This document shows positions 7,965 through 61,983 of a stretch of DNA of 64,000 nt, piece after piece. Below the pieces are notes generated by a model. It ran no database searches. It saw only the letters and a program-made list of their open reading frames with translations, and was not told the DNA's origin. The position numbers and the translations under genes were made by a program. Numbering within the stretch: position 1 is the first letter of the stretch; each line of letters starts with the position of its first letter. Location: NCBI GenBank assembly GCA_000004985.1, contig GG738930.1. The stretch is one strand, 5' to 3'. Origin of the DNA: Naegleria gruberi. Its lineage: Eukaryota.

Positions 7965-8066
7965 AATATGAATAAACAAAACGAAACCATTTTTTTTATT
8001 AGAAAATATTATATCAGATATTGCTATTTATTATTTAATAATAATTATAAATATTACATAATAAAA

Positions 8067-10603
8067 ATGAATAGACAACTATTGGAATATGTTTATAATC
8101 TCTTTCCGAATCCAACAACTGTAAAATTAAAATTCATCCGATCGGATGATGATATGAGCCTTGTACTACATCAAAACATTGCAGTCTTGTTTTTTCATTA
8201 CAAGGGAAAGACTGTTAATGTAATTGATGAAACAATTTTAGATAATTTGGGAAAGGTTTGTTTTTAAAGATCATCAGCTGATTGAATATTTAAATTATTT
8301 AAATATTAATTATTGGAAAATTACAGATGATCGGAGATGTAGAACGTTTAGTATTGGAAGGTAAAATACATGGATTAATGATGTACAGTTTAAAAAAGGA
8401 TTGTTTTATTGCAGGAGCTGATGTAAATATGATTTATACAATAACTGATAGAGAAAAAGCAAAAACTCTCTCAAGAACAGGACAATACCTCACGAGAAGG
8501 ATTGAATATTTACCAATTGTTGTTTTGGCTGCAATTCATGGAGTTTGTTTGGGAGGAGGATTTGAATTGTGTTTGGCAGCATCCCATAGAGTTTGTTCTA
8601 ATTATTCAAAAACTTATTGTGGACTTCCTGAAACGAAATTGGGGATTTTGACAGGTTCAGGTGGGTGTGTCAGATTGCCACGATTGATTGGATTGGATAA
8701 TTCGATTCAAATGATTTTACAAGGAAGTTCCATTGGAGCTAAGAGTGCATTGGAATGTGGAATTGTTGATCAGGTGTTTCCTTACGAAGTTGAACAGAAT
8801 AATGATGAATACATATCAAAAACCAAACCTCAAGCACAAGATGTGGAATTCTTTCAAAGATCTTTCGAATATATCAAGGATTTATCTGTACAGACACTTC
8901 CTGAAAGGGAGGAATTAATTGCTGAAGCAATGAAGGATATATTACAAGTTGCTTCCTCACGATTATTCAATAGGGAGCCATCTTTCCAATTACAAAAGTA
9001 CAAGAGAAGGAAAATATCTATCAGAGAATATCTGAAAGACAATCCAATTGGAAGATTATTTATCGAGTTTATTGCTTCAAATAATATCAAGAAACAAACA
9101 AGAGGAAGACCATTCCATTCGCCACACAAAATATTGGAAACAATAATTAGTGGATATACCATGACAATAGATCAAGCCCTGGAGATTGAGGCATCTAATT
9201 TTGCAGAGCTTGTCATTGATCCAGTTTCTAAAAATTTGATTTCCCTCTTTAACATGTTGGAAGCTGCTAAAAAGGCCGAAAATTATTGTGATCCTCAATA
9301 TTGTCATTTGAAGATCAAGCAAGTAATCAACAGGATTGCTGTTTGTGGAGCTGGTCAAATGGGATGTGGAATTACTCAACTCTGTCTATCAAAAGGTTAC
9401 AACGTCTATCTAAAAGAGGTGGAATATCACTACTTGGAAAATGGATTGAAACGTATCAAGAATGAGCTCTACTCTAAACAAATTCGTTCTGGAAAGGTAA
9501 CAGAAAATCAACGAGATGAAGTCATTTCCAAATATTTAGAAACTGGCTTGAAATATGACCCAATAGAAAATTGCCAAATGGTTATTGAAGCAGCCCTTGA
9601 AAGAATTGACATTAAGAAGGAAGTTCTCGAGAGAGCACAAGCATTCAACAAGGAAATAATTTTTGCCACCAATACCTCCTCAATTCCATTAACATCCATC
9701 GCAGAGGAGAGTAACATGAAGCAAAATGTGATTGGGTTGCACTTTTTCAATCCAGCCAATGAGATGCCACTTGTGGAAATTATTGCTACGAGATATACTT
9801 CACAGGAGGTATTAGCGAAAGCTTACCAATTTGCTCTAGATTTGGGGAAAATTCCAATTGTTGTGAATGATAGTCCAGGATTTTTAACAACCAGATTATT
9901 TGTGGTGTATTGCATTGAGGCAACAAGTATTGTATTGGATGGTGTTCCATTTGAGGAAATTGATCAACGATTACAAGAATTTGGATTTTCAACAGGTGTA
10001 TTGTCTATGCTAGATCACAATGGTCTCGATGTTGCCATTCACGTCATGCCAATCCTAGCCCAAAATTTGGCACTCAGATTTGACCACTACGAAGCCCTTA
10101 AAGAACTAGTTAAAGGTGGCAATACAGGTGTGAAAAATAGAAAGGGTTTCTACTTGTACGATGAATATGGAAGACAAACTGGAATCAATCCGGAAGCTCT
10201 CAAAATTATTTCTCGCTATCAAGCCAAGAGAGAAAGAAAAGTAACACTGGCAACACTCTACGATGATATTGTTGATCGATGCATTCTCGTCTTGGTCAAT
10301 GAGGCAAGTAAATGCATTGAGGAAGGAATTATTGCACTACCTGAAGCTGTGGATATTTCAATGATTATGGGATTTGGATTTCCATCATTCCTTGGAGGTT
10401 TACTTTCATTTGCTGATTCGTTGGGAATTGCAAATATTGTAAAAAGATTGGAAGAGCTCTCTATTAGATATGATTCTGTCAAAATGCCATCAAAACTGTT
10501 GGTTGATATGGCAAAATCTAATCATCACTTCTTCCCTGAACGAGTTGTTTTGCATTCAATTATTGCCAAACAACAAAATCAACAACATGCAAGTAAATTG
10601 TAA
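8067..10603 (+). CDS. Peroxisomal multifunctional fatty-acid beta-oxidation enzyme (enoyl-CoA hydratase domain plus 3-hydroxyacyl-CoA dehydrogenase domain), C-terminal PTS1 -SKL; join(8067..8255, 8327..10603), intron 8256..8326
   Basis: Enoyl-CoA hydratase motifs AVLFFHYKGKTVNVIDETILDNLGK|MIGDVE..DCFIAGADVNMI..LAAIHGVCLGGGFELCLAASHRVCS. 3-hydroxyacyl-CoA dehydrogenase NAD-binding motif IAVCGAGQMGCGITQ. Ends ...HASKL*. Intron GTTTGT..TTACAG, phase 0, joins the conserved hydratase N-terminus. Alternative start ATG at 8154. Confidence 0.85.
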
Positions 10604-12345: not shown

Positions 12346-12418
12346 TGCTGACGGACGGGATCGAACCGGCGACCAATGGCTTATTAGACCAACGCTCTAC
12401 CGACTGAGCTACGCCAGC
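12346..12418 (-). tRNA. tRNA-Ile (anticodon AAU), 73 nt
   Basis: GCTGGCG-TA-GCTC-AGTCGGTA-GAGC-G-TTGGT-CTAATAA-GCCAT-TGGTC-GCCGG-TTCGATC-CCGTC-CGTCAGC-A. Acceptor 7 bp with one G-U. A-box and B-box (GGTTCGATCC) present. Anticodon loop CT-AAT-AA. Confidence 0.9.
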
Positions 12419-23749: not shown

Positions 23750-24262
23750 TCAATTCATTTCCAACAAGGCCAATAAATCTTCCAAATCCGATCTAATATT
23801 TGAGATTGGGGAGCGTAGAGTAGCATTGTGATCCCAATTTCTTTTTACAATTTCAAAATATTTCATTACTACTATTACAATGTTGGGAGATGTTTTTTCA
23901 TCTGGCAGCATGTACTCTGAAATCCATTTGAATATTTGATCTTCTGTTTTGAAAGGAATTATAGGTCTAAGTCCTTTAACAACCAATCCTGGAATGTTGA
24001 AAAGACTCACATTAGACCATAACCTTTCTTCCTCATTGTTGGTTTCGTACATTCTTGTCAATTTGAAACTTGATGAATAAGGTATCACTTCAAAGAATAC
24101 TTCCCACATAATAATTGCAAAGGAATAGACATCTATCATGGTTGCTGTTTGTCTCGAGGCCATATTCGATTCACTTGGTCCTTCTAAAACCTCGCTTGGA
24201 CAATAAAACAATGTACCTAAATTAGTTCTGTATTTAAATTGCAAGAGTTTTCTGTAAAAGAA
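23750..24262 (-). CDS. C-lobe fragment of a TKL-type protein kinase (subdomains VIII-XI) with no N-lobe on the same strand
   Basis: ...RKLLQFKYRTNLGTLFYCPSEVLEG(x13)IDVYSFAIIMWEVFFE...GLRPIIP...KWISEYMLPDEKTSPN matches the APE / DVYSFGI-LWE / GxRPxIP kinase C-lobe motifs. The ORF's 'M' is TTG and the frame stays open upstream through 24262. Confidence 0.6.
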   Translation of the reverse strand, partial: FFYRKLLQFKYRTNLGTLFYCPSEVLEGPSESNMASRQTATMIDVYSFAIIMWEVFFEVIPYSSSFKLTRMYETNNEEERLWSNVSLFNIPGLVVKGLRPIIPFKTEDQIFKWISEYMLPDEKTSPNIVIVVMKYFEIVKRNWDHNATLRSPISNIRSDLEDLLALLEMN

Positions 24263-25415
24263 GTTGTGCCAGGTAAACCACTAACCTTGAAGCTGCTAGT
24301 CCATAATTTTTTCGGTGATACTATTACTGATTTAAGCAAGATTAGGATTATGTATGATATTGATCAAGACATTGTTCTTTCTCTAAATTTCTCAACAGAC
24401 AGCACAATTCAAATAACACCCTACCCAGTCCAAAAGGAAATTGGAGCCTTAGAAAGGAGTTTGACACTTTATTCAGAAGACTCTCAGTATTTTTTTAATG
24501 TTTCATTCACATTTGTAAAATGCCCTCAAATGTTTACAATGGATGATGTGGTTATATCAGGTCAACCAGCAGTTGAATGTATCCCAGAACAAGTTGTACT
24601 CTCAAGAGATTTTGTAATTCTAGTTGCTGTTCCAACTTCAATTGCTGTTCTAATACTGGGAATATCTATTGGTCTGTTTTCTCTTTATGTCCTTAACTTT
24701 ATTTCGGTAAGAATGTGGAGACTGAAAAAGAAAGAAAAAGCAGAATTGGAATTGGAAATGAGAATTATTGACAAGAAAGTAATATTTCAAAATTCTGTGG
24801 TTTCTTCCCAATCTACATTGTCAGAAACTGCCAAATCAAAACAATCAAACAATAGTGATCTATCCGTTCCACTGATAGAAAAGAATGAAAAACCGTCATT
24901 TATTATTCCTATTGAAAATATTGAAATTGTTAGAAAACTTGCCGAAGGAGGACTAGGAATAGTTTATCTTGGGAAATTAGTTGGAAAAATTGACGTTGCC
25001 ATAAAACTTCTGAAATCGACCGACCAAGGAGATGAGTTTGAGCAAGAAGCTTCATTACTGAGCTCACTGAGACATGATAACATTCTGACATTATTTGGTA
25101 TTTGTGTAACATCAGAAAACAAATACATGGTTACTGAGTTTGCTGAAATGGGCTCTCTTGATAAATCCTTATACAGAGCCAGGATTGGGGAAATTACTCT
25201 TCCACTGAAGAACAAACTCTCTATATTAATAGCCACAGCTAAAGGCATTGAATATTTACACAATTTGACACCAACTGTTGTTCACCGTGATTTAGTAAGT
25301 ACTACAATCTTGTTAATTTATTGTTATTAACCAATATTAACTTCAACAGAAACCTGGAAATATCTTGCTTGATAAGAAGAGTGTTGCCAAGATTTGTGAT
25401 TTTGGCCTATCAAGA
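24239..25415 (+). CDS. Receptor-like kinase fragment: extracellular segment, one TM helix, and kinase N-lobe through DFG; join(24239..25294, 25350..25415). It has no ATG start and no kinase C-lobe downstream
   Basis: TM: FVILVAVPTSIAVLILGISIGLFSLYVLNFISV then RMWRLKKKEK. Kinase: LAEGGLGIVYLGK..VAIKLL..E..VVHRDL|KPGNILLDKKSVAKICDFGLSR. The intron 25295..25349 (GTAAGT..CAACAG, phase 0) restores a perfect HRDLKPGNIL catalytic loop. Confidence 0.65.
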
Positions 25416-27008
25416 ACGATTTCCAATTCCATGAACAGTGTCTTGACAGGGGCACTCATAAACTCTGTATTTGGAGGTTTCTTGAATTGGAAAGATGATC
25501 CAGTAGACTTTAGATTGGACAAATATCCTTCTGCTCCGAGTGATGCTGTATTCTTGTTAAAGGTACATGTTTCAGAAATGATTAGTGATTTTGGATTCTC
25601 ATCTCCCTGGTTTCTTCCAAATAATAGAGCTCCACCTTTAGATGCCTTATTGTTTAGAAATTTACATCCTGATATGAGACCAGTTTTTTCAATTCCAAGA
25701 ACAGATATTGCTCCTCCACCACCTTTAACGTAGCCAATTGAGTCATCTTTTCTTTGACTGTAACTTTCCAATAAAACTCTATTTCTTATGAAAGTAGAAT
25801 CTGAAACTTCCAATTCTTTTACATACTCTATATGAACTGCTCCTCCACTAATAGATGCATTATTTCCAATGAACGTATTGTTTGATAACTGAGCTTTTGC
25901 AATGAATAGAATGAACATTCCCCCTCCACTTTCGGCACTGTAATTATTTTCGAATATATTATTAGTTACTGAGGCCCAACAATAAGTTGTCATATCAGGT
26001 TGACAATATCCTAGGAAAAGTGCTCCACCCTTCTGTCCCCTATTTAGCTGAAAAATATTGTTATCAAGTTTGGCAGTCACATAATTATTGACATATACAC
26101 TTCCTCCATAAAGACTACCCTTATTACGAGCAAAATATGAATTGGTAATATTCACATTGGCACAATTAAACGTCAACAATGAACAAGTGTAGAAACACTC
26201 TCTAGTTATTTCACTATTCATCATTGAAAAATAGTCCACAAGCACATCTTTCACATCGATAATGCTAATTACTTGTCTATTTGATGTGCTATTAGCATTT
26301 TGTAGCAAGGCATACGCTCCTGATTGAAGATATAGCTTTGGTCTCTTTAGTGATGTACCCTTAATATTAGAATCAGTAAATTTGAATGTTTCAAAATCTC
26401 GAACAAATATCTTTCCTTCTTGATCTATAATTCCATTTGTTGCTGTTACTTGTTGTATTTTAGAGAATCTTAAAAGTGCAGCTACCTCATAATTGTGCAA
26501 TTGGGCATAATTTCCCATATTTACCTCCATATGACTGTCAGAATCCAAAAGAGAGGAATTTTCAATTACTAAATTCCCTGAAAACACGATAGCAAAATAT
26601 TCTACAGTGCTGTTGACTATTTCGAAAGTAGTAGATTTTACATCTCCTTGAATGTCATTTCTAGGATAGTACTTGAAATCAGAATCATTAAAGTATGAGT
26701 TACTGATCGTAAATGAGATGAGCTGGTCAAAATTATAATTGACACCGTATAAATTACAATACTCATAAGATATGTAGGATATATCTGNNNNNNNNNNNNN
26801 NNNNNNNNNNNNNNNNNNNNNNNNNNNNNNNNNNNNNNNNNNNNNNNNNNNNNNNNNNNNNNNNNNNNNNNNNNNNNNNNNNNNNNNNNNNNNNNNNNNN
26901 NNNNNNNNNNNNNNNNNNNNNNNNNNNNNNNNNNNNNNNNNNNNNNNNNNNNNNNNNNNCTAGCAACAACAAGAAAATCACCACCATCACGTTGTTGATT
27001 CTTTCCAT
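25343..27008 (-). CDS. Secreted right-handed beta-helix (pectin-lyase-fold-like, GGA[LV]/NNxF repeat) protein, interrupted by assembly gap 26788..26959; the 3' limit is uncertain because the last ~25 codons are antisense of the kinase exon
   Basis: Signal peptide MERINNVMVVIFLLLL at 27008; repeats ...GGALFLGYC...NNIFENNYSAESGGGMFILF...SNNTFIGNNASISGGAVHIEY...VKGGGGAISVLG...NNKASKGGALLFG. Confidence 0.5.
26788..26959. other. Assembly gap (172 N) inside the beta-helix protein gene
   Basis: Run of n. Confidence 1.
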
Positions 27009-29226: not shown

Positions 29227-32200
29227 ATGAGTAATTATAGTGATCATCAGAAGAGTGGTAATTCTTCTTACGCATCTTCTAGTAATAATAATAGCCGAGG
29301 AGGAAAAAGACCATCCAGAGGTAGAGGAAATTATCATCATACAAGTAGTGCTGGTGGTAGTGGCAGCAGTGTTAGTGGTGGTTACCATCATCATCATGCC
29401 TCCCAACCACAACAGCCTCCACAACAACAACAACAACATGTTAGAGAGGGTCCACCAAAATACAAAAAGAAACAACCTCTCGCTTTTGTCAAGATTCCAT
29501 CTTCAAGTAGTGTTGAAGAACAAGAAGCTAAGAAACAAAAACAAGAAACCAAAATTGTAAATAATAATACAATTAATGATGAACAAGTTGATGCCGATGA
29601 TGAATTAGGCCTCGATGTTGCAGACTTTATTCCAACATACATCAACAGATTCCGTGAACTTTTGACCACATTGTATAGTAATAGCCAATTAAATCAAGAC
29701 CAATTGTTAAATATTGCAAATAGAATTTGGAGTGAAGTTTTAGAACCAACACTTCTTGCCGAATTAAATCCAAGCCTAGAATCACTCTATACAGCATCAT
29801 CTAGGAAGGGAAAACTCACGAATTTTATTGGTGATAAGGATATTAGACTTGTCACAGTAATAATGGGCATTGATAAGCTGATTACTAAGGTTCATCATTC
29901 TAGTAGCATTGTAGAAGTTGTTCCAGAATTCATTTTACATCAAAAGGGTATTAAAGTTGAAGGAGATGATAGAATTATTGAGTTGCTTCCTCAATTTGAT
30001 ACACTCTTTTTCGAGATATTAACACATGAAACAAGAAGAATTTGGAGACAATCCAACTCTGATATGAGTATTAGTATTTCCAATTTTGAAACTGATTTTA
30101 ACAAGTCTCTGGTTGGTTGTAATATTTCTCAATTTGAGAAGCAAATTGAGGAATTAAAGAATGAAATTGAGCAATTGAAAAAGTCAGAATCTATCTATGC
30201 AAAGAAGAGAAAGGAAATTGAGAATGAAATTGATCGTTTAATGGAAAAGTCTTTGGACTTGATTGATTTGGTTGAAGAAGCCGAGAAGGAAGAAAAGCTT
30301 TCCAAGAGAACCATGTCTAGTCGTTCATTGTCAGAAGAATCTGATGAAACTACAGAGGATGAAGCAATCACACCAAAGACCTCACAACCACCAGTTGTAG
30401 AACAAATTCTTCCAACAACAAATGTCAGCCAAGAAGGCAAGACTGTCTTTTTGCAAAAGATTGCAGCACTCATCAAGGTTGCCCAAGCTGAAGAAACAGA
30501 AAGTTCCGAAAAGCTCAAAACCTACTCTACCATTGCTTCAATGATTGATGCCTCTTTCAATTATTTCAAGGATAAGAGTAATCAAACTGAAGGTATTGTT
30601 CCTTTGAGCTATTCTTCGATATCAACACCAACCATTCTCTTCTTGTTGGACTTTTTTAAGGAAAATCCTGAAAAGATTCCATCCAGTGTTATTTCCAAGG
30701 TTTTGTCATTGACATCTTGCTCTTTGAAGGGAAGAAGATTTGAGGAAAAGAATGAAATATTTGCTCGATATCATGTTGTTTTGATGCATTTTACCAAGTA
30801 TCTTACTATCAGAAAGATGGAACTTTTCATGAATCTTATGAATAAGATTTCTTCTTCTCTCAATGGTGTTGATTCTGAATTTATCTTTTCTCTCTTGAAA
30901 CAAAATGCTCCTACACAATATAGAAATGGTAATACTCTTATGGGATTCTCAGATAGAGTTAACTTGGTAAGATTGTGGCAAGTACAAGCATTCTGTGCTA
31001 CTCTCGTTATGACTAATCCAAAACTTGCCAATCAAATTTTCACCTTCTATGAACGTCACTGTCTCTCATGGATGAATCTTTGGGAAGAAATCAAAAATGT
31101 TTGCCTCAGAGAAACATCACTCACTGCCGTAAAGAAGAAGAAACAAAAGAACGACCTAGCTTCATCATCAAACGTAGCTAGTGCATCTTCATCTGAAAAG
31201 GAAGAGTCTGAAGTTGTAGCTGTTGCCTCTCAAATTACAGAAAAGGTGCAATCACAAGTTGCCATTAGTGAATCACTCGAAACTGACATTCAGAATATTG
31301 AAACTCAATTAGGTAAATCTCCTGAAGTTTTAAAACAAGAAGCTGAAGAACATACCATGCTTCAAATAACTAGAGATTGTACCAAGATTTTCAAGGAAGA
31401 ACTCGAACCAAGTGAGGAAGAACGTAAGGGTAAGAAAGAATTGGTAGATGAAATTTCTCAAGTTATTCAATCCCTCTTCTCTTCTAATCAAAATATTGGA
31501 GATCAACAAGTTCAACCACCAAAGATTTATACCTATGGTTCCTATGCTAGCGACTTGAGTTTAAAGGGTTCCAGTGATATTGATATGTGTGTTTCATTTG
31601 CAGGTTTGGAGAATATTCAAGAAAACAGCAAGATCCAAGGTAGATTATTGGAAATGATAAGAAAGGAAATGGACGGAAAGAGTAAGAAGGATACCAACAC
31701 TCTCTTCCCTCATTTGAAATCCCAAAATCAAGAAGTTATCAGAAGCAGTAGAGTACCAATTCTCAAGATTCATGATAACAAGAGAGATTTGGATTGCGAT
31801 CTCTGTGTTGCCACCTATTTGGGTGTAGTTAACACTAGAATGATCAGCACTTATTTGCAAGTCGATTCAAGAATGTTGGCCTACTATAAGGAAAATGGTT
31901 TGGCAACCCTTGCTGATTCTGAAATTGATAGAATCAAGACCTTTATTTACATGATCAAGAGATGGGCCAAGAGAAGACATATCAATGATCCTCCAGGTGG
32001 TTCACTTTCATCATACAGTTATGTTCTCATGTGTCTTCAATTTTTGCAACATTTAGAAATTTTACCATCCCTCCAACAAATTGCTGAAGATACATCACTT
32101 GGATTAACTGACGAAGATTATTCCAAGCCACAACATGTCAATGCTTATAATACCAAGTATTTGAAGAATTTGGAAAAGCTTCCAACTATTTGGAAAGCCA

Positions 32201-35200
32201 AGAACCCTCAAAAGGTTGCTTCCTATACACTTGGTCACTTGATCTACTTGTTCTTTGAATTCTATGCTAAGAAGTTTGACTTTGATACTAATTGTATCTC
32301 AATTAGAGCTGGTAGTCCAGTTCCAAAGAAAAATGCCAAGACTATTATTTCACTTGAAGATCCATTCGAAATTCGTGATCTTGGATGTGTTGTTTCTAAT
32401 GAAATGGGTCCTGTCATTGTTTCTGAATTTAGAAGATCTCATGAAATTTTGTCTGCTGGTGGTTCTATCAATGACTTGCTTGAGGAAAGAGAAGGAGTCT
32501 CCTCTGTTAATATTTATCAAATGAAGAGAGAAGTAGGAAAACAAGGTTATGATGATTACTTAGCCAGTGAAGCTGTTGATGAAATGTTGGCCAAGGGCGA
32601 ACTTTATCAAGGTGAATTGAGAGTCAATAAGAAGCGTTTCACAACTGAGGCCTATGTTTCAGTTGAAGGTTTTAAAAAGGATGTCTTGGTTGAAGGCCTT
32701 AAGAATCGTAACAGAGCAATGCATGGTGATGTTGTTGCCATTAAGATTCAAAAGACCAAGGTTGTTGCTGGTTCTGTCATGAGCAATACTCAACAAGAAT
32801 CTGCTAAGAGTCCAGAAGATACTGAACCTGCCACTGAAAAGATTGAAGTCGTAGCAACTGATTCTAATCTTGATGAGTCTGATGAAAATGTAATGATAAC
32901 TGGTGTTGTTGTTTCGATCTTGAAGAAGAAATCACCATCTATTTTCCCATGTACTTTAATGGCTCAAGATGATATTAGAGGTTACAGATGGCTGTTACCA
33001 CTCGAAAAGACCTATCCAAAGCTCAACGTTCCTTTCGAAGAATTTGAAAAACAATTCAATGCCAAATCTATTACTTTGGAAGAAGGTATTTTCGTTGTTG
33101 AAATGAAACCTTGGAATAAGAATTCAAACTTCCCTAAGGGTGCTATTATTGGTTGCCTTGGTTTGAAGAAGGATTTGTGGAGTTTAAAGAGAGCTCTCCT
33201 CCTTCAATACTGTCCAATTATGTTTGATAATATTTTCTCTGAAAGAAAGGTTGATAGAGACACTGAAAAGGAAATTACTTCTGCAACTTCAAGTTCTGTT
33301 ATGAGTCAATCCATGGCAGGATCTACTGCAGGAAGTGTCGTGGCCAAATCTGGTCTCGAAACTCATGCAGATGATGTTAAAAGAAGAAGTGATTATGGTC
33401 AAAATCAAGTTGCAAACATTGGTGATACTATCAGTGATATCAAACTTGAATCAGTTTCTTCAGATGAAATTATTCAAATTCAAGACTGGAGAGAATCGAG
33501 AAGAATTTTCACTATCGATCCTACTGAATCCAGAGATCTTGACGATGCTATCGCCATTGAACCAATTCTTGAGAATGGCCAACAACTTAACAATGATGCC
33601 TACCGTAAACCATATGCTGGTGTTCGTAAATTCTTAGTCACTGTTGCCATTGCTGATGTTTCTCAATTTGTTCCTGAAGGTTCACCAATTGATAAGGAAG
33701 CCAGAAAGAGAGGTACCAGTGTTTACATGGTCAATAGTGTTGAACATATGCTTGATCCTTCATTGTCTCAAAATCTTTGCAGTTTGCACGGAGGTGTCAA
33801 TCGTTTTGGTGTTGCTGTTGAATTTGTAATTGATAGAGAAACTGCTACCATTGAAAAGAGTAGTATCAAGTTTAATAGATGCATGATGAGATCCGCATGT
33901 CGTTTGGACTACAACAGAGCCCAAAAGATGATTGTTCACTACAAGAATAAGTTCTTTAATGGTCAAAATGAGACTGATCCAAAACGTAGATATGGTCTTG
34001 AACCAGAAGAAGTCCCAGCTGTCTATGGCTCTTTTACCTTGGATGAAATTTATGAAGATGTTCAAATTTTCAATGAACTTTCTCAAAAGTTGAGAAAGCA
34101 AAGAGCTGATAAGGGAAGTATTTTCTTGCAAAACGAACAACTTCGTTTCGAATGTGACATGGATGGTAAAGGTTTCCCATTGAAGGTTGCCTGTGATGAA
34201 CATAATGAATCCCACATGCTCATTGAAGAAATGATGTTGGTTGCTAACGAACTTGCTGCTACCGTTTTGAATGATCATTTTGGTGATGCAACCTTGTTGA
34301 GAGTTCACTCCTCTCCAAAGGTTGAAAAATGGGCTGTCACTGTTTCATTGCTTGCTGATAAGATTTACAAGTGGAAGCTTGACAATGTTACCAGATCAGG
34401 TATTGCAGTTGAAGCAGAAAAGGAAAAGGCTCACGTTTTAGATAAGTTGGAAAAGTGCGTTAAACATGTAACAAAGGGAGCTGAAAACAATGAGAAGCCA
34501 ATTACAATTCAAAACATTATCAATCTCCTCATTGAATCCACCAAGGATTATCCAACATTGATGCATACTATTCAACACAGTCTTTTGAGAGAAATGCAAT
34601 TGGCTCAATACGCCACTGTTGGAGATTGTAAGAAGGGAAAAGAAACTACTAAGGAAATTGTTGTTGAACCAACAGATATTGGCTCCAAGAGAATGGTTCC
34701 TAAGAAGCAATTTGAGAATACTTGGCATTTTGCTTTGTGCAAGGAATTCTACACTCACTTTACTTCTCCAATCAGAAGATATGCCGATTTGGTTGTTCAC
34801 AGATTGTTGCTTCAAATGATTCGTGAAAAGAGACTCAAGGAAATGAATCAATCAGATGAATCTATTCTCAGTAAGAGAGAAACTTCCTTGTCAGCTCAAG
34901 AAATTTCCTCCATTGCTGAACATCTTAATGATCAAGCCTATAGAGCAAGATTACTCCAAGACGAATGCGAAAAGCAATACTTGGCATATTATTTGTGGCC
35001 AAAACTTTCCAAGTCTGTTGAAAGAGTTGAAGCAGTTGTCTTGTCTATGGGTAAGAGAAGTTTCACCCTCTTTGTACCAAAATACGGTCTCGAACTCCAA
35101 GTTAATGCTATGAAGCACTTCTCCCCAACTCCTACCACACTCAAGATGGACGAAATTGAAATGGAAAGCCTTGTTTCAAACAGTATTTTGAAATTAGGAT

Positions 35201-35829
35201 CTCAAAGTGGTGAAGATGAAGATGCTCCAGTTATTGGTGGTACTATTATTGAAAAATTGACCATCACCTGGTCTGGTGCTTCACAAGCCCTTATTTCTGT
35301 GGATGATGACGAAAATTCAGCTCCTACAGACTCTGTTCCTGTTGCCTCTCAACATAACAAAACTATTGAGCTCAAACCACTTAAACAAGTTCTTGTTGAT
35401 TTGGACATTAATACCTCGTCTGTTCCTCTTGAAATTATTTGTTACAATATTTGGGAAAAGGATGAAAATTTGATCAATAATGAGTTCAGTAAGAAGATTA
35501 TTGATAAGAATACCAAGGCTGTCTGCAGTAGAAATGCACATGGTTCCAAGCAATTCTCCTCTGATAGTACTACAGCTGTCCTCAAGAGCTCATCAGAAGC
35601 TCAAGGCAAGCAAATGGAAAAGCTTATCGATAACATGCAAAAGATCAATAGAAGAAAGAAATTCTTTGAACAAGACAATAACAACAATTCATCTCCATAC
35701 ACATCAGGAGGAGGTTCTTCTTCATCAGGCCCTAACAATAATTTTGAAAGAAGAGGAAAACCATTTGCAAGAGGAGGTGGTAACGTGAATTCAAGAGGAG
35801 GTGGTTCCAGAAGACAATACAATCAATAA
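29227..35829 (+). CDS. 2,200-aa fusion protein: N-terminal low-complexity/coiled-coil region, then Cid1-family nucleotidyltransferase (terminal uridylyl / non-canonical poly(A) polymerase, NTase plus PAP-associated), then DIS3L2-type 3'-5' exoribonuclease (CSD, RNB, S1), then an RGG-box tail
   Basis: Uninterrupted 6.6 kb ORF. NTase: [25 protein letters not shown] (GS..DxD), [65 protein letters not shown]. PAP-associated: [19 protein letters not shown]...[40 protein letters not shown]...[80 protein letters not shown]. S1: [26 protein letters not shown]. Tail: [22 protein letters not shown]. Confidence 0.85.
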   Translation: [2200 protein letters not shown]

Positions 35830-35868: not shown

Positions 35869-35918
35869 NNNNNNNNNNNNNNNNNNNNNNNNNNNNNNNN
35901 NNNNNNNNNNNNNNNNNN
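35869..35918. other. Assembly gap (50 N) in the intergenic region after the fusion gene
   Basis: Run of n. Confidence 1.
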
Positions 35919-36049: not shown

Positions 36050-37531
36050 ATGGATCCTAATAATAATAATTTACCATCTTCAACAATAGATTCCTCCCCT
36101 TCATCATCATCAAACAAAAAGACTAAGAAGAAACTTACCTTCTCTTCCTCTACTGATAATACCCAACAAAAACAACAGAATGTCCCATCACCAACAGGAG
36201 GGAAGAAGAACGTTTCCTTCCGAGGATCTTCATCCAATGAGGCAATTTCATCCTCTGCTGCTTCCTCTTCAAAAAAGAGTACTAGTATTAGTATTAAACC
36301 TTCTAGTAACAGTAGCTTTATTCCAGAAACTCCACCAGATCATGTGATGGCCTCCAATTCATTGAGAATGAGATATCTATCGGATGATATGATTGAGGGA
36401 GATTCGTCCGATGATGATAATAGTAAATCAGATTCATCTGCGAATGGAGATGATAATAGAGCTGCTTCTGTGATTAGTACGAGAACTAATTCACAGGGAT
36501 TAATGGATTTGGAAGATCAAGATGTGATTGAGGAAACACCAAAAAGGCCATCCATTAGAAAATCAGCAAAATCTGTAGCTTATACAATGGAACATTTGGG
36601 AAATAGATCTTCTTTCTATGATTTTGAAACTATTGGAATGCATCGATCAGCTACGAGATCAAATTTCACAGGAAGAACTATGGATCGTTCCATGTCTTTT
36701 TATCCAGGTTCTGCTGTGAGTCCTAGTTCTAAGCTCACTCAACAAGAATTCAAACGTAGAAATTCAATTAGAAGAATGAAATCAGTATTTGACTTTTCGA
36801 GAGATGAAAATATGCTCCACGATGGACGTGCCTTATTTTTTGATCCTGAAAGAGGAGCTTTTATTGGAGGATCAGAGGATGATTTAATGTATTCAGGTGG
36901 AATGAGTCAAGATGAAGATGAAATGAGTGAATCAGCAAAGAAAAAGTTTTCGTACAGAGCCAAGAAGTGGATGAAGGAAAAGTATGCTGCCTTTGTGGAA
37001 AAGTTAAAGATTGTAATGAGATTTATCTATACTATCACTTTTGGAGTTTTATTGTTTTTGATATTTAATTTATTCTCTGGATTGAGTTTCATTACAGTCT
37101 TTGGGGCTGATTATGGCAAAACCTTATTTAAATTATCCTTCTTTATGCTTAATCCGTTTAACAAGAGAGTTTTCTTTGGATATTTGATAGAGCAGACAAC
37201 CAGTGGTGCAGGAGAAAGAACTGGGTTGTTATCTTCTTCAAACACCTCATCAGAAAAGCAAAAGAAAAAGTATCCAATCTCAAGGTTAGTGAAACACTTG
37301 TTTTGGGTGTTACTTATTGGACTGCCAATGACTTTTGTACAATCATTTATTGTCATTATGTGTTGGTTCCCAATTATACCAATTCCAATTTCAAAACTCA
37401 TTTTCAGTATTAACAAGAACATGTTCTTGCCAAGTTTTATTGATTTGACCATTACAAGGAGAGTGGAAACATCAAATTCCAATTCAATTAATAACGAAGA
37501 TAATGATGAAGAGAAGAAGGAAGAAACCTAA
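36050..37531 (+). CDS. Ser-rich protein with 2-3 C-terminal TM helices; possibly the N-terminal (regulatory) part of the downstream CAX gene if the TAA at 37529-37531 is bypassed by an unrecognised intron or is an error; otherwise a separate gene
   Basis: ATG 36050; 493-codon ORF; TM helices IYTITFGVLLFLIFNLFSGLSFITVF and LVKHLFWVLLIGLPMTFVQSFIVIMCWF; ends 16 bp before the CAX ATG. Confidence 0.45.
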   Translation: MDPNNNNLPSSTIDSSPSSSSNKKTKKKLTFSSSTDNTQQKQQNVPSPTGGKKNVSFRGSSSNEAISSSAASSSKKSTSISIKPSSNSSFIPETPPDHVMASNSLRMRYLSDDMIEGDSSDDDNSKSDSSANGDDNRAASVISTRTNSQGLMDLEDQDVIEETPKRPSIRKSAKSVAYTMEHLGNRSSFYDFETIGMHRSATRSNFTGRTMDRSMSFYPGSAVSPSSKLTQQEFKRRNSIRRMKSVFDFSRDENMLHDGRALFFDPERGAFIGGSEDDLMYSGGMSQDEDEMSESAKKKFSYRAKKWMKEKYAAFVEKLKIVMRFIYTITFGVLLFLIFNLFSGLSFITVFGADYGKTLFKLSFFMLNPFNKRVFFGYLIEQTTSGAGERTGLLSSSNTSSEKQKKKYPISRLVKHLFWVLLIGLPMTFVQSFIVIMCWFPIIPIPISKLIFSINKNMFLPSFIDLTITRRVETSNSNSINNEDNDEEKKEET

Positions 37532-37546
37532 GATAAATCCATTCAC

Positions 37547-39450
37547 ATGGTTGATCCTTTCACTTTCAAAGCATTCAAGATGAAATTATTCTCTATTAGA
37601 GTTCCACTCATCAACTTGCTTCCTCTCGTTGCCTTAACTATTGGACTTCATTATGGTATGGAAGATGACTTTACAACCAAATATAGTATGGTCATCTTTG
37701 CCTTGTCAATTGTTGCTGCCATGCCTCTTGCTTTCATTATTGGCCATTGTGTTGAATCTATTGTTGCTCAAACTTCATTTGTTTTTGGAGCATTGTTGAA
37801 TGCCACATTTGGTAGTATAATTGAACTGATATTATACTTCTTAGCTCTGTACAAGGGGTTGCAGGGTGTGGTTGTGAACTCTGTAAGTGGTGCAATCTTA
37901 GGTGCTGTCTTACTTACTCCAGGGCTTGCCATGGGCTGTGGAGGTCTTAGATACAGGGAACAATACTTTAATAGATATGCTGCAGGTGTTTCCAGCATCT
38001 TGTTATTCATTGCAGTTGTTGGTGCCTTCTTGCCATGTTTGTACTACTTGTCATTTGGTGTTCAGCAATTGAAATGTGGCCAATGTTTGAATGGTTTGCC
38101 ATACAATAGAACGAAGGAAGAGCCAGATATTTATTCGAAAGGACTATTATCAACTAGTACAGCACCTTATTCATCATTTTCATCCAATATTGAAGGAGTC
38201 AACAATCCTCCTGAAGCTGATTCCTCTTGGTTTGATACTGCTAAACGTAGCTTTAAGAGTTTGTATGGTAGAAAGTACAAGAGGCCCAACAAATCAGTTC
38301 ATGGAGCGAACCTTAAAGAAATTACCAAAAAGACAACAATTGGAACAATTTATGGGGCTCCTGTCGAAATTGCTCCTCGCTCCTTCTCACCAATGGATGA
38401 AATTCAAAATTATCACACCTTATTGGACTTAAAATCTGCAGATTTATTATTGACCAGTAATTATACTCCAGTGAGTAATTTCACCAACAACAGTACCTTT
38501 AGTATTCGGTGTGTTGGTTGTGATATTTCATTGGAAGACTTTGTCCATGATCCTCTCTATGAAAACAAGGTGAGACCACTTGCATTCACAGCAGCAATTA
38601 TCTTACCATTTGCCTACTTTTTCGGATTATTCTACAGTTTGAGAACCCACAGATTCTTAATGCAAAAACCACCAAAGAAGGGATTCTCTGGAGAAGGAGA
38701 ACACCAAGAAAAAGAGCCAGAAGATGACCAAGAACAAGAGGAAACAAACTCAACAAAAGGAGATCAATTAGATGATAATAAGAGTGCTAGTAAGGCGTCA
38801 ATGGAAAATCTGAAAGATTCTGACAGCGAAGGACATGACCAATCTCTAATTAAATCAGAAAAAGACGAGTCGAACAAAACAGAAGAAGAGGAGGAGGAAA
38901 GTATTTGGCCTATCTGGTTGGCTATTTTAGTTCTCATTTTGTGTACTGCAGCATATTCGTTCGTTGCAGTTATGACTTCAGCACTTGGTAAGTTTGTTTT
39001 TTACTATATTTCTCAAATATTTAAATGAAATTGTTAACTCGTTCATCAACAAATTCAGAACCTGCCTTTGAAAGTATTGGAGTTAGTGCAGAATTTGCTG
39101 GATTAACCTTCATTGCAACTGTGCCAAGTATGGGCGAATTCCTCAATGCAATTCAATTTGCCTGGATGGACAATGTTACACTTGCTTTGGAAATTGGTAA
39201 CGTTGCTGCTATTCAAATTTCTCTCCTTCAAATTCCAGCTCTTGTCTTGGGATCCTTCCTCATCTTTGAAGGAAATGAAAATATGATTTTTTCCCTTACT
39301 TTCCCTCAATTCAATTTGATGGCCATCTTCTTCTCAGTTCTCATGTTGAATTACATTAGTAGAGATGGACGTAGTAATTACTTCCACGGACTGGCTCTGG
39401 TGTTTGTCTATATTTTCATTGTGGTTGGATTTTTCTTCATTTATCTGTAA
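37547..39450 (+). CDS. Ca2+/H+ antiporter, CAX/VCX1 family; join(37547..38987, 39059..39450), intron 38988..39058
   Basis: Alpha-repeat 1 GALLNATFGSIIELILYFLALYKG, acidic cytosolic loop EEEEEES..., alpha-repeat 2 LTFIATVPSMGEFLNAIQFAWMDNVTLALEIGNVAAIQISLLQIPALVLGSF. Intron GTAAGT..AATTCAG, phase 1, removes the in-frame stop and joins ..MTSAL|EPAFESIG. Confidence 0.75.
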
Positions 39451-58726: not shown

Positions 58727-58807
58727 GCAGGGGTTCCCGAGTGGTCAAAGGGGGTAGACTCAAGTTCTACTGCGCAAGCTTCGTGGGTTCAAATCCCACC
58801 TTCTGCA
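58727..58807 (+). tRNA. tRNA-Leu (anticodon CAA), type II, 81 nt
   Basis: GCAGGGG-TT-CCCGAGTGGTCAAAGGG-G-GTAGA-CTCAAGT-TCTAC-TGCGCAAGCTTC-GTGGG-TTCAAAT-CCCAC-CTTCTGC-A. Very close to the canonical eukaryotic tRNA-Leu(CAA) D-arm and anticodon arm (GCCGAGTGGTCTAAGGCGCCAGACTCAAGTTCTGG). Long variable arm. Confidence 0.85.
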
Positions 58808-60480: not shown

Positions 60481-60554
60481 TGCCTCCCTTGGGAATCGAA
60501 CCCAAGACCTCTGTCTTACTAGGACAGCGCTACTGCCAACTGAGCTAGGAAGGC
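60481..60554 (-). tRNA. tRNA-Thr (anticodon AGU), 74 nt
   Basis: GCCTTCC-TA-GCTCAGTTGGCAGTAGC-G-CTGTC-CTAGTAA-GACAG-AGGTC-TTGGG-TTCGATT-CCCAA-GGGAGGC-A. Perfect anticodon stem. Anticodon arm is near-identical to the animal tRNA-Thr(AGU) (TGTCTAGTAAACAGG). Confidence 0.85.
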
Positions 60555-61923: not shown

Positions 61924-61983
61924 CGAAAGAATANNNNNNNNNNNNNNNNNNNNNNNNNNNNNNNNNNNNNNNNNNNNNNNNNN
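61924..61983. other. Assembly gap (60 N) that truncates the second PAS-cyclase gene and probably the 5' end of the glycoside hydrolase gene
   Basis: Run of n; the sequence on its high-coordinate side (61984-62023, minus strand ..AYIRDYKSLSTPE) is homologous to 47884-47923 of the first cyclase gene, which is immediately followed there by the cyclase domain. Confidence 1.

What the first reader, a model, noticed from the sequence alone, without database searches (positions are those of the whole stretch)
29227..35829. One continuous ORF fuses a Cid1-type terminal uridylyl/nucleotidyl-transferase to a DIS3L2-type RNB exoribonuclease
A 6.6 kb uninterrupted ORF in AT-rich DNA cannot arise by chance. 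Codons ~770-1090 carry a complete Cid1/TUT-family catalytic core: GS motif, then the DIDMC and DCDLC Asp pairs, then the RWAKRR-type helix, then the [12 protein letters not shown] PAP-associated domain. After a linker of only ~35 codons comes a DIS3L2-like module: a cold-shock-like domain ([10 protein letters not shown]...[13 protein letters not shown]), the RNB catalytic domain ([34 protein letters not shown]), an S1 domain and an RGG tail. There is no PIN domain. In fission yeast and animals, Cid1 or TUT4/7 adds U-tails and a separate protein, Dis3L2, degrades the U-tailed RNA. In trypanosome mitochondria, a TUTase and an RNB nuclease also form a complex from separate polypeptides. A covalent fusion of the two activities would be a Rosetta-stone arrangement, that is, tail-and-degrade in one polypeptide. 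I am not aware of it being described. The first ~770 codons (low complexity plus coiled coil) have no recognisable domain and may add substrate targeting.
Basis: partly seen in the sequence, partly recalled or inferred. Interest (0 to 1): 0.85.

Follow-up and report, generated by a model that had tools for sequence, protein, structure and literature searches.

The report
Tailing enzyme fused to DIS3L2 nuclease
In the amoeboflagellate Naegleria gruberi and its relatives, an enzyme that adds a short tail to RNA 3' ends and the DIS3L2-type nuclease that degrades tailed RNA are made as one protein, whereas in animals, plants and yeasts they are separate; I found no paper describing this fusion.

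Summary
Window 29227-35829 (+) is one uninterrupted 2200-codon ORF with no assembly gap inside it. It is identical to the NCBI Naegleria gruberi protein named only 'ribonuclease II family protein'. The organism is a heterolobosean (Discoba), not an amoebozoan. Pfam and PDB searches place a TUT4/7/URT1-like terminal nucleotidyltransferase (TENT) at residues about 735-1075. A 29-34 residue linker follows, then a complete DIS3L2-type nuclease (CSD1, CSD2, RNB, start of S1) with no PIN domain. All catalytic residues of both modules are intact. The same single-ORF architecture occurs in N. lovaniensis, Willaertia magna, Acrasis kona (whose annotation wrongly splits it), Percolomonas cosmopolitus (from a transcriptome) and several environmental contigs. 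The linker is under purifying selection. One correction: the UTP-selecting histidine of Cid1/TUT7/URT1 is an invariant arginine here, so the added nucleotide is unknown. The most likely mechanism is tail-then-degrade within one polypeptide, a covalent version of the Drosophila Tailor-Dis3L2 and trypanosome RET1-DSS1 complexes. Literature searches found no description. Verdict: real, a new variant of a known kind, moderately high interest.

The parts
29227..35829 (+). Whole gene: single-exon ORF of 2200 codons plus stop. It equals the NCBI N. gruberi protein named 'ribonuclease II family protein'.
   Evidence: P0001: 100% identity, 100% coverage, 2200 aa
29227..29616 (+). N-terminal low-complexity segment (res 1-130) with RGG/RG repeats, His and Gln runs.
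   Evidence: 37% identity to P0002
29617..31428 (+). N-terminal all-helical extension (res 131-734) with no recognised domain. It includes a coiled-coil-like stretch at about res 303-357 (30133-30297) and a better conserved block at res 401-640.
   Evidence: No Pfam family above cut-off. AF2 model is all-helical but unreliable, pLDDT 49. 30-50% identity to P0002. Similar to Willaertia only over res 452-734. Weak collinear hhalign match to the Acrasis/Percolomonas group, probability 29%.
31429..32451 (+). Terminal nucleotidyltransferase (TENT) module, res 735-1075: NTase palm inserted in a PAP/OAS1 substrate-binding domain, plus PAP-associated domain.
   Evidence: Pfam PF22600, PF01909, PF03828. 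PDB best matches URT1 1e-27, TUT7, TUT4, CutA, GLD2, Cid1. With the family profile: TUT4 275 bits, TUT7 255, URT1 244.
31537..31584 (+). hG[GS] motif (G771 S772) and the first two catalytic aspartates (D784, D786) in '[16 protein letters not shown]'.
   Evidence: Invariant in 8-11 family members
31798..31800 (+). Third catalytic aspartate, D858 ('DLDCDLCV').
   Evidence: Invariant; aligned with the catalytic strand of URT1/TUT7
32356..32385 (+). Nucleotide-recognition motif '[10 protein letters not shown]' (E1044-G1053). R1050 (32374-32376) occupies the position of the UTP-selecting His (Cid1 H336, TUT7 'LNHNLG', URT1 'TSHDLG'), and the loop is one residue shorter.
   Evidence: HMMER alignments. 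Invariant 'EDPFExRDLG' in the fusion proteins aligned. Paralogue P0088 has 'DPFEYQRDLG', which is DxxExxR with normal spacing. The His rule and the CutA Arg are described in PMC5689010.
32452..32550 (+). Inter-module linker, res 1076-1108, with the conserved 'NIY' motif.
   Evidence: Length 29-34 residues in all members. 60% aa identity to P0002 with pN 0.23 and pS 0.61. AF2 pLDDT below 50, so it is probably flexible.
32551..32766 (+). Cold-shock domain 1 (res 1109-1180), starting at the position where human DIS3L2 CSD1 starts (human residue 47).
   Evidence: Pfam PF17216 30.9 bits against cut-off 22; alignment to 8e29
32767..32901 (+). Poorly conserved, acidic insert between the two halves of the CSD region (res 1181-1225).
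   Evidence: 38% identity, pN about equal to pS; AF2 pLDDT below 50
32902..33216 (+). Cold-shock domain 2 (res 1226-1330).
   Evidence: Pfam PF17849 43.9 bits against cut-off 22.8
33217..33471 (+). Ser/Ala-rich spacer between CSD2 and RNB (res 1331-1415).
   Evidence: low pLDDT
33472..34824 (+). RNB catalytic domain (res 1416-1866). Motif I is '[10 protein letters not shown]' (33517-33546; D1431, D1437, D1439, D1440). Motif IV is '[18 protein letters not shown]' (34750-34803). An expanded stretch of about 130 residues (34324-34725) sits where human DIS3L2 has its trihelix linker.
   Evidence: Pfam RNB 3.3e-79. DIS3L2 is the best PDB match. Motifs invariant. Trihelix linker P612-M669 in human DIS3L2: PMC10023572.
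35014..35466 (+). S1-like C-terminal OB region (res about 1930-2080), interrupted by an insertion.
   Evidence: First strands align to human DIS3L2 770-799. Conserved blocks G1942, R1944, F1946, K2053, V2057, D2058, L2059, W2076. Pfam Dis3l2_C_term below cut-off.
35467..35826 (+). C-terminal low-complexity tail ending in RGG repeats (res 2081-2200).
   Evidence: 40% identity to P0002

Best explanation
The ORF encodes one protein of about 250 kDa in Naegleria gruberi. A catalytically competent TUT4/7/URT1-like terminal nucleotidyltransferase is joined by a short conserved linker to the N-terminus of a complete, catalytically competent DIS3L2-type 3'-5' exoribonuclease (CSD1-CSD2-RNB-S1, no PIN, so independent of the exosome). 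Proposed mechanism: the TENT module adds a short untemplated tail to the 3' end of a structured or aberrant RNA. That tail is the single-stranded landing pad which the CSD/S1 funnel of the nuclease module of the same polypeptide (or of a neighbouring copy) threads into the RNB tunnel, and the RNA is then degraded processively. Re-tailing is possible when the nuclease stalls. The N-terminal helical extension and the RGG tails probably supply RNA or partner binding. What is shown: one ORF, domain identities, intact active sites, conservation of the fusion and of the linker across Heterolobosea, and a fused transcript in Percolomonas. What is inferred: that both activities act on the same RNA in sequence, the identity of the added nucleotide (U, C or A, because Arg replaces the UTP-selecting His), the cytoplasmic location, and the substrates.
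For: The ORF is continuous and contains no gap. Pfam domains appear in the order PF22600/PF01909, PF03828, PF17216, PF17849, PF00773, all above cut-off. The nuclease half aligns collinearly to human DIS3L2 residues 47-799. With the family profile, DIS3L2 scores 410 bits, above DIS3L1 (343) and DIS3/RRP44 (292). The TENT half is nearest to TUT4/TUT7/URT1. The catalytic residues G771/S772, D784, D786 and D858, and the RNB residues D1431, D1437, D1439, D1440 and '[13 protein letters not shown]', are invariant in all fused members. An exhaustive HMMER scan of 1.84 billion representatives put nine further proteins that have both modules in the same order above every plain RNB protein. They include N. 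lovaniensis, Willaertia magna and Percolomonas cosmopolitus. The Percolomonas ORF comes from an MMETSP transcriptome contig. In Acrasis kona the DNA is stop-free across both modules (1821 codons), although the annotation splits it. Three more junction-spanning environmental ORFs were found. The linker has a constant length of 29-34 residues, a conserved NIY motif, and pN 0.23 against pS 0.61. Precedent for physical coupling exists. Drosophila Tailor binds Dis3L2 through the N-terminal regions of both proteins (PMC5311484; PMC6344859). Trypanosome RET1 and DSS1 sit in one complex in which uridylation induces DSS1 decay (PMC5159558).
Against: There is no biochemical or transcript evidence for N. 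gruberi itself. The UTP-selecting His is replaced by Arg, and the NRM loop is one residue shorter, so canonical uridylation is not predicted. DIS3L2's base-specific contacts for U could not be checked. The AF2 model gives no confident relative placement of the two modules (pTM 0.43, linker pLDDT below 50), so direct hand-over of the 3' end is conjecture. A tailing enzyme and an exonuclease compete for the same 3' end, so fusion could equally serve to limit or time the nuclease rather than to feed it.
Confidence: 0.65

Rival explanations
1. Same fused enzyme, but its job is 3'-end maturation (trim-and-tail) rather than destruction. The nuclease trims a precursor until it stalls at a structure or a bound protein, and the TENT then caps the product with a short tail that releases or protects it, as proposed for guide-RNA processing by the trypanosome RET1-DSS1 MPsome.
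For: The MPsome model has exactly this logic, and it operates in another Discoba lineage (PMC5159558). Both active sites are intact. The Arg-type NRM differs from decay-marking TUTases.
Against: The TENT half shows no listed similarity to trypanosome TUTase structures and is nearest to TUT4/7/URT1. The nuclease half is nearest to cytoplasmic DIS3L2, a surveillance and decay enzyme. The MPsome is mitochondrial and needs three extra subunits. Nothing here suggests organellar targeting, though no targeting predictor was run.
Confidence: 0.2
2. Only one module is enzymatically relevant. The other has been kept as an RNA-binding or scaffolding pseudoenzyme, in the way Ssd1-type pseudonucleases are kept in fungi.
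For: An environmental paralogue (P0088) keeps the TENT, PAP_assoc and CSD2 domains but has a degenerate RNB with motif I and IV residues lost and no Pfam RNB hit. So this family can tolerate loss of nuclease activity. Pseudonucleases have evolved repeatedly in the family (PMC8097288 abstract).
Against: In the window protein and in all nine or more orthologous fusions, every catalytic residue of both modules is invariant, despite only 35-67% overall identity.
Confidence: 0.07
3. The fusion is not what the cell makes. Either it is an assembly or annotation artefact, or two separate products arise from the one ORF by internal transcription or translation start, or by proteolytic cleavage in the linker.
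For: There are no N. gruberi transcript data. The Acrasis kona annotation lists two gene models. AF2 predicts the linker as disordered, so it could be a cleavage site.
Against: An artefact is excluded. The same junction occurs in at least 12 independent assemblies, there is no N in the ORF, and the linker is under purifying selection in frame. The Acrasis DNA is stop-free across both models and 68% identical over about 1800 residues to an environmental ORF. Percolomonas transcript contigs carry the complete fused ORF. Separate products cannot be excluded, but nothing positive supports them.
Confidence: 0.05

Closest known systems
DIS3L2 (human, mouse, S. pombe; PDB 8e29, 4pmw, 4ro1)
   Same: Order CSD1-CSD2-RNB-S1 with no PIN domain. 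Collinear alignment from human residue 47 to about 799. Catalytic DPxxxRDLDDA and [13 protein letters not shown] motifs are intact. It is the best PDB match (410 bits with the family profile).
   Different: It carries about 1100 extra residues at the N-terminus, including a whole TENT enzyme. It has large insertions: res 1181-1225, 1331-1415, and an expanded region where the human trihelix linker lies. S1 is interrupted. The U-specific contacts were not verified.
TUT4/TUT7 catalytic module, Arabidopsis URT1, S. pombe Cid1 (terminal uridylyltransferases)
   Same: NTase palm inserted in a PAP/OAS1 substrate-binding domain. hG[GS] motif, DxD and third Asp. PAP-associated domain. The D and E of the DxxExxH cluster are kept.
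   Different: The UTP-selecting His is Arg and the loop is one residue shorter ('EDPFExRDLG'), invariant in the fusion proteins aligned. There are no zinc knuckles and no Lin28-interacting module. The module is covalently linked to the nuclease.
Drosophila TRUMP complex (Tailor TUTase + Dis3L2)
   Same: The TUTase-family enzyme and Dis3L2 are physically coupled. In flies the contact is made by the N-terminal regions of both proteins (PMC5311484), and here the TENT sits directly on the N-terminus of the DIS3L2 module.
   Different: In flies the complex is non-covalent and mediated by Tailor's DUF1439, whereas here it is one polypeptide. Tailor is the weakest TENT match listed (73 bits against 275 for TUT4), so the coupling arose independently.
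Trypanosome mitochondrial 3' processome (MPsome: RET1 TUTase + DSS1 RNB nuclease + MPSS1-3)
   Same: A tailing enzyme and an RNase II-family nuclease form one particle, and tailing triggers decay (PMC5159558). Both organisms belong to Discoba.
   Different: The MPsome has separate polypeptides, is mitochondrial, and uses a RET1-type TUTase. No trypanosome TUTase structure appears among the PDB matches of the window protein.
Fungal CutA (C/U-adding TENT)
   Same: Arg at the position of Cid1 H336 in the nucleotide-recognition motif (PMC5689010). CutA is a significant PDB match (184 bits).
   Different: The CutA cluster is ExxNxxR, whereas here it is DxxE-x-R. CutA is a stand-alone enzyme. Other enzymes that lack the His differ in specificity: Cid13, which PMC5689010 groups with CutA by its cluster, adds mostly A, and PUP-3 adds U (10.1101/422972). 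The Arg therefore does not predict the nucleotide.
TRAMP-exosome (Trf4/5-Air-Mtr4 with Rrp44/Rrp6)
   Same: The general logic of adding a tail to give an exonuclease a single-stranded entry site (established knowledge).
   Different: It is nuclear, uses polyadenylation, and depends on a helicase and the exosome. Trf4 is a weak match (86 bits) and DIS3/RRP44 scores well below DIS3L2.

Membership tests
Non-canonical TENT / Cid1-TUT family (NTase + PAP/OAS1 SBD) | hG[GS] motif and catalytic triad [DE]h[DE]h ... h[DE]h | tested here: met
   G771 S772, D784, D786, D858. Invariant in all family members and aligned to URT1/TUT7.
Non-canonical TENT / Cid1-TUT family (NTase + PAP/OAS1 SBD) | Central palm and PAP-associated domains above curated Pfam thresholds | tested here: met
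   PF22600 71.9 bits (cut-off 27), PF03828 41.4 (22.6), PF01909 24.8 (21)
Terminal uridylyltransferase (Cid1/TUT4/7/URT1 type) | DxxExxH nucleotide-recognition cluster with the UTP-selecting histidine (Cid1 H336) | tested here: not met
   The window has 'DPFEIRDLG': D and E are kept, Arg replaces His, and the loop is one residue shorter. The rule comes from PMC5689010. The rule has exceptions, so U addition is not excluded.
Terminal uridylyltransferase (Cid1/TUT4/7/URT1 type) | Preferential UMP incorporation in vitro or in vivo | not testable with these tools
   Needs NTP incorporation assays or 3'RACE-seq of the tails.
DIS3L2 (exosome-independent RNase II/R-family exoribonuclease) | RNB domain with four-Asp motif I and motif IV Arg/Tyr | tested here: met
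   PF00773 266.9 bits. D1431, D1437, D1439, D1440 and '[13 protein letters not shown]' are invariant.
DIS3L2 (exosome-independent RNase II/R-family exoribonuclease) | Two N-terminal cold-shock domains | tested here: met
   PF17216 30.9 bits (cut-off 22) and PF17849 43.9 (22.8); aligned to human CSD1/CSD2
DIS3L2 (exosome-independent RNase II/R-family exoribonuclease) | Absence of the PIN and CR3 modules that tether DIS3/DIS3L1 to the exosome | tested here: met
   No PIN family at E<=0.1. The sequence upstream of CSD1 is the TENT module. A CR3 motif was not searched for separately.
DIS3L2 (exosome-independent RNase II/R-family exoribonuclease) | Closer to DIS3L2 than to DIS3 or DIS3L1 | tested here: met
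   Family profile against PDB: DIS3L2 410 bits, DIS3L1 343, RRP44/DIS3 292, RNase R 227. No phylogenetic tree was built.
DIS3L2 (exosome-independent RNase II/R-family exoribonuclease) | C-terminal S1 domain | tested here: inconclusive
   Only the first strands align (human 770-799). PF17877 scores 15.9 bits against cut-off 31.6. Conserved blocks downstream suggest an interrupted S1.
DIS3L2 (exosome-independent RNase II/R-family exoribonuclease) | Base-specific contacts for oligo(U) along CSD/S1/RNB | not tested
   The residue list is in Faehnle et al. 2014 (PMC4192074), which is not held in the library.
TUTase-RNB nuclease assemblies (TRUMP, MPsome) | Physical association of the tailing enzyme and the RNase II-family nuclease | tested here: met
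   The link is covalent: one ORF here and in at least 12 relatives.
TUTase-RNB nuclease assemblies (TRUMP, MPsome) | Orthology to Tailor (DUF1439) or to RET1/DSS1 | tested here: not met
   No DUF1439 hit. Tailor is the weakest listed TENT match (73 bits). No trypanosome TUTase structure is among the matches.

The most novel reading that the evidence does not exclude
The fused enzyme is not a U-tailing machine. The invariant Arg and the shortened nucleotide-recognition loop would make the TENT module add C, A or mixed tails, and the attached DIS3L2-like nuclease would have co-evolved to read that tail. Heterolobosea would then use a different 3' 'degrade-me' mark, written and read by one polypeptide, possibly with direct hand-over of the 3' end between the two active sites.
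Probability: 0.3. Interest if true: 0.75.

Novelty: new variant of a known kind. Interest (0 to 1): 0.6.

Why it matters
Tailing-dependent RNA decay by TUTases and DIS3L2 is a conserved surveillance pathway. They form a stable complex in flies and in trypanosome mitochondria, but there is no clear evidence for one in mammals (10.64898/2026.03.27.714668). A natural covalent fusion retained across a whole protist phylum is independent evolutionary evidence (a Rosetta-stone fusion) that the two activities work on the same molecule. It also offers a single-chain system for structural and kinetic study of how a 3' end passes from a polymerase to a nuclease. The Arg-for-His change raises the testable possibility of a tail other than U. 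In addition, the finding corrects several database entries, which are uninformative, truncated or split gene models.

Tried and rejected
(1) Homologue search with the full 2200-aa protein. The word-index candidates were swamped by low-complexity words and only 2 proteins were returned.

(2) Word-index searches with the N-terminal region returned nothing, not even the query itself. The search with the TENT domain alone returned 4 hits, none of them a fusion. Both are uninformative. The exhaustive HMMER scan did the real work.

(3) An AF2 model of the N-terminal extension had pLDDT 49, so it was unusable and no fold search was run.

(4) An AF2 model of residues 735-1930 with 11 sequences had pTM 0.43 and a low-confidence linker. 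It gives no information on the geometry between modules.

(5) An hhalign comparison of N-terminal extensions between the Naegleria group and the Acrasis/Percolomonas group gave only 29% probability.

(6) An apparent cold-shock-like 'GFGY' motif at the N-terminus of the Acrasis-group proteins got no Pfam support at E<=0.01 and was dropped.

(7) The DIS3L2 oligo(U)-contact residues could not be checked because the source paper is not held.

(8) A mitochondrial, MPsome-like origin was considered and rejected on sequence affinity.

(9) Misassembly was considered and rejected.

(10) Conserved synteny was checked. A Mito_carr gene lies upstream in both Acrasis and N. lovaniensis, but none is visible upstream in the N. 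gruberi window.

Full report
**The observation**

The window holds one ORF, 29227..35829 on the + strand, of 2200 codons from an ATG. It translates without interruption. The ORF contains no N. The three assembly gaps of the window lie outside it, and the nearest (35869-35918) begins 40 nt after the stop codon. With the window's base composition (about 35% G+C, 7.3% stop codons expected) the chance of 2200 stop-free codons is about 10^-72. Codon-position G+C is coding-like along the whole length, including the junction.

**Source organism**

The translation is 100% identical over 100% of its length to an NCBI/UniRef protein of Naegleria gruberi named only 'ribonuclease II family protein'. The public gene model is therefore this same single exon.

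**Domains**

- Pfam places these domains in order, all above their curated cut-offs: MTPAP-like_central (722-878, 7.5e-20), NTP_transf_2, PAP_assoc (1001-1048, 1.8e-10), Rrp44_CSD1 (1109-1175), OB_Dis3/CSD2 (1253-1328) and RNB (1424-1866, 3.3e-79). No PIN domain is found.
- Against PDB sequences the nuclease half matches DIS3L2 best and the transferase half matches Arabidopsis URT1 and human TUT7/TUT4 best.
- The nuclease half aligns collinearly with human DIS3L2 from residue 47, the start of CSD1, to residue 795-799, the first strands of S1.
- With a profile of eight family members the ranking for the nuclease half is DIS3L2 410 bits, DIS3L1 343, DIS3/RRP44 292, RNase R 227.
- For the transferase half the ranking is TUT4 275, TUT7 255, URT1 244, GLD2 198, CutA 184, Cid1 158, mtPAP 123, Trf4 86, Tailor 73.
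- No trypanosome TUTase structure appears in these lists.

**Active sites**

The G-S motif (G771, S772), the DxD pair (D784, D786) and the third Asp (D858) are present. So are the RNB motif I aspartates (D1431, D1437, D1439, D1440) and motif IV ('[18 protein letters not shown]'). All of these are invariant across the family.

There is one clear departure from canonical uridylyltransferases. In the nucleotide-recognition motif Cid1, TUT7 and URT1 have DxxExxH. The histidine (Cid1 H336) is the main determinant of UTP selectivity (PMC5689010). The window protein has '[10 protein letters not shown]' instead. The Asp and Glu are kept, the loop is one residue shorter, and HMMER aligns Arg1050 with the histidine.

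Every fusion protein in the family alignment has 'EDPFExRDLG', and a divergent paralogue has 'DPFEYQRDLG', that is DxxExxR with normal spacing, which fixes the alignment. The further ORFs checked also have the Arg (N. lovaniensis, Acrasis 'LEDPFELRELG', L004/L005); my pattern search found no match in L006, which I did not inspect further.

An Arg at this position is the hallmark of CTP-preferring CutA, whose cluster is ExxNxxR. The rule is not absolute, however. Cid13, which PMC5689010 groups with CutA by its cluster, adds about 90% A. PUP-3 and Cid16 add U although they lack the histidine (10.1101/422972). The nucleotide added by this enzyme is therefore open.

**Is the fusion real and conserved?**

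An exhaustive HMMER scan of 1.84 billion representative proteins was run with residues 735-1930. Nine proteins with both modules ranked first, at 1721 to 428 bits. A tenth, P0010 (369 bits), is the nuclease-half model of the Acrasis fusion. Ordinary RNB proteins begin only at 219 bits.

phmmer with each half separately confirms the order TENT, then CSDs, then RNB in each of them, and Pfam confirms it for those tested. Source names identify:
- Naegleria lovaniensis (XP_044554385.1, a truncated model);
- Willaertia magna (KAL9644295.1, 2008 aa);
- Percolomonas cosmopolitus (UniRef A0A7S1KTZ8, 1818 aa).

The Percolomonas protein comes from the MMETSP0759 transcriptome. The 6807-nt transcript contig carries the complete fused ORF.

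For Acrasis kona, GenBank lists a 257-aa NTase model and a 771-aa RNB model side by side. The DNA, however, is stop-free for 1821 codons across both, and it gives a single tblastn segment to N. gruberi residues 721-2077. It has the full Pfam architecture. It is also 68% identical over about 1800 residues to an environmental ORF. The split is therefore an annotation artefact.

A metagenome scan with a junction-only alignment found three more junction-spanning single ORFs, L004, L005 and L006. The named species belong to Naegleriidae, Acrasidae and Percolomonadida, so the fusion predates the divergence of these Tetramitia lineages.

**The junction**

The closest relative, P0002 (an environmental contig, 2118 aa, 53% identity), is collinear through the junction. 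In a codon comparison the 33-residue linker has 60% amino-acid identity with pN 0.23 against pS 0.61, similar to the catalytic domains. Across the family the linker is 29-34 residues long and contains a conserved Asn-Ile-Tyr motif.

This excludes a misassembly, a hidden stop, or two genes read together. AlphaFold2 on residues 735-1930 with 11 sequences gave moderately confident domains but pTM 0.43 and pLDDT below 50 in the linker. The relative geometry of the two active sites is therefore unknown, and the linker may be a flexible tether with a short conserved motif.

**Other parts of the protein**

- The first roughly 730 residues have no recognised domain. They are predicted to be all-helical, at low confidence.
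- They are conserved at 30-50% identity within Naegleria and only partly in Willaertia.
- Most family members with a complete ORF have an N-terminal extension of roughly 450-730 residues; the model for P0008 has about 230.
- Similarity between lineages is at best weak: hhalign probability 29% over about 100 columns just upstream of the TENT.
- RGG repeats occur at both ends of the protein.
- The nuclease half has lineage-specific insertions. One is an expanded stretch of about 130 residues where human DIS3L2 has the trihelix linker that wedges apart double-stranded RNA (PMC10023572; alignment).

**Mechanism**

The best-supported reading is a tail-then-degrade enzyme. The TENT module adds a short tail, and the attached DIS3L2 module uses it as a single-stranded entry and degrades the RNA. 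This is inferred from the established functional pairing of TUTases with DIS3L2. It is also inferred from two known physical assemblies. One is the Drosophila Tailor-Dis3L2 (TRUMP) complex, held together by the N-terminal regions of both proteins (PMC6344859; PMC5311484). The other is the trypanosome RET1-DSS1 MPsome, in which uridylation induces DSS1 decay (PMC5159558).

In the fusion the TENT sits directly on the N-terminus of the DIS3L2 module, which is topologically analogous to the fly complex. By sequence it is unrelated to Tailor or RET1, so the coupling arose independently.

Rival readings are:
- an MPsome-like trim-and-tail maturation role;
- retention of one module as a pseudoenzyme, which the invariant catalytic residues disfavour, although the paralogue P0088 has lost its RNB motifs;
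- separate products made from one ORF.

**Novelty**

Eight literature searches and targeted reading of TUTase, DIS3L2 and RNase II papers found no mention of a natural TENT-RNB fusion or of this Naegleria protein. The sequence and its precomputed Pfam domains are public, but under uninformative names. I rate it a new variant of a known kind: known enzymes and a known pathway logic in a new covalent architecture, with an unusual nucleotide-recognition motif.

Interest is moderately high. It is a clean Rosetta-stone case and a convenient single-chain model for coupling. It does not by itself overturn current understanding.

Noticed in passing
P0088 (JGI metagenome protein, 1412 aa; no window coordinates): A divergent paralogue of the fusion keeps the TENT, PAP_assoc and CSD2 domains, but its RNB region is degenerate. 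Motif I reads 'FTISDHKIK--STAFAVE', motif IV reads 'FTSPAMAFTNLFAHRM', and there is no Pfam RNB hit. It is probably a pseudonuclease version of the fused enzyme.
   Followed up: partly
L034 4851-10313 (Acrasis kona JAOPGA020000687.1): GenBank splits one stop-free 1821-codon ORF into separate models: NTase (6855-7625, 257 aa) and RNB (8001-10316, KAL0480765.1). The upstream roughly 600 codons are not in either model.
   Followed up: yes
L035 4909-9678 (Naegleria lovaniensis PYSW02000005.1): The public model XP_044554385.1 (1226 aa) starts at an internal ATG of a 1590-codon stop-free stretch. The ORF ends at the equivalent of N. gruberi residue about 1911, so the S1/C-terminal part is missing, lies in another frame, or is separated by an intron. 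This was not resolved.
   Followed up: partly
window 26788-26959, 35869-35918, 61934-61983: There are three runs of N (172, 50 and 50 nt), which are scaffold gaps. The second lies 40 nt downstream of the stop codon of the fusion gene, so its 3' UTR is incomplete in this assembly.
   Followed up: yes
window 36050-37531 and 37547-39028 (+): Two adjacent ORFs are each exactly 493 aa and lie only 15 nt apart. One has a YccF membrane domain and the other a Na_Ca_ex domain. They are unrelated in sequence. They may be two exons of one transporter gene or two very tightly packed genes.
   Followed up: partly
window 12346-12418 (-), 58727-58807 (+), 60481-60554 (-): There are three tRNA genes: Ile-AAT, Leu-CAA and Thr-AGT.
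   Followed up: no
L034 2694-3795 (-) and L035 3051-3974 (-): A mitochondrial-carrier (Mito_carr) gene lies upstream on the opposite strand of the fusion gene in both Acrasis kona and N. lovaniensis, which suggests old micro-synteny. No such ORF is visible upstream in the N. gruberi window.
   Followed up: partly
window 24239-25330 (+): This ORF's last roughly 135 residues are the N-terminal half of a protein-kinase domain that stops mid-domain. It is presumably one exon of an intron-containing kinase gene.
   Followed up: no
L004 and L005 (JAESGV010000425.1 / JAESGV010000204.1): Two contigs of one assembly carry fusion ORFs that are 98% identical (1714 and 1711 aa). They are alleles or a recent duplicate. 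They are 50% identical to the Acrasis protein. The organism is not identified.
   Followed up: partly
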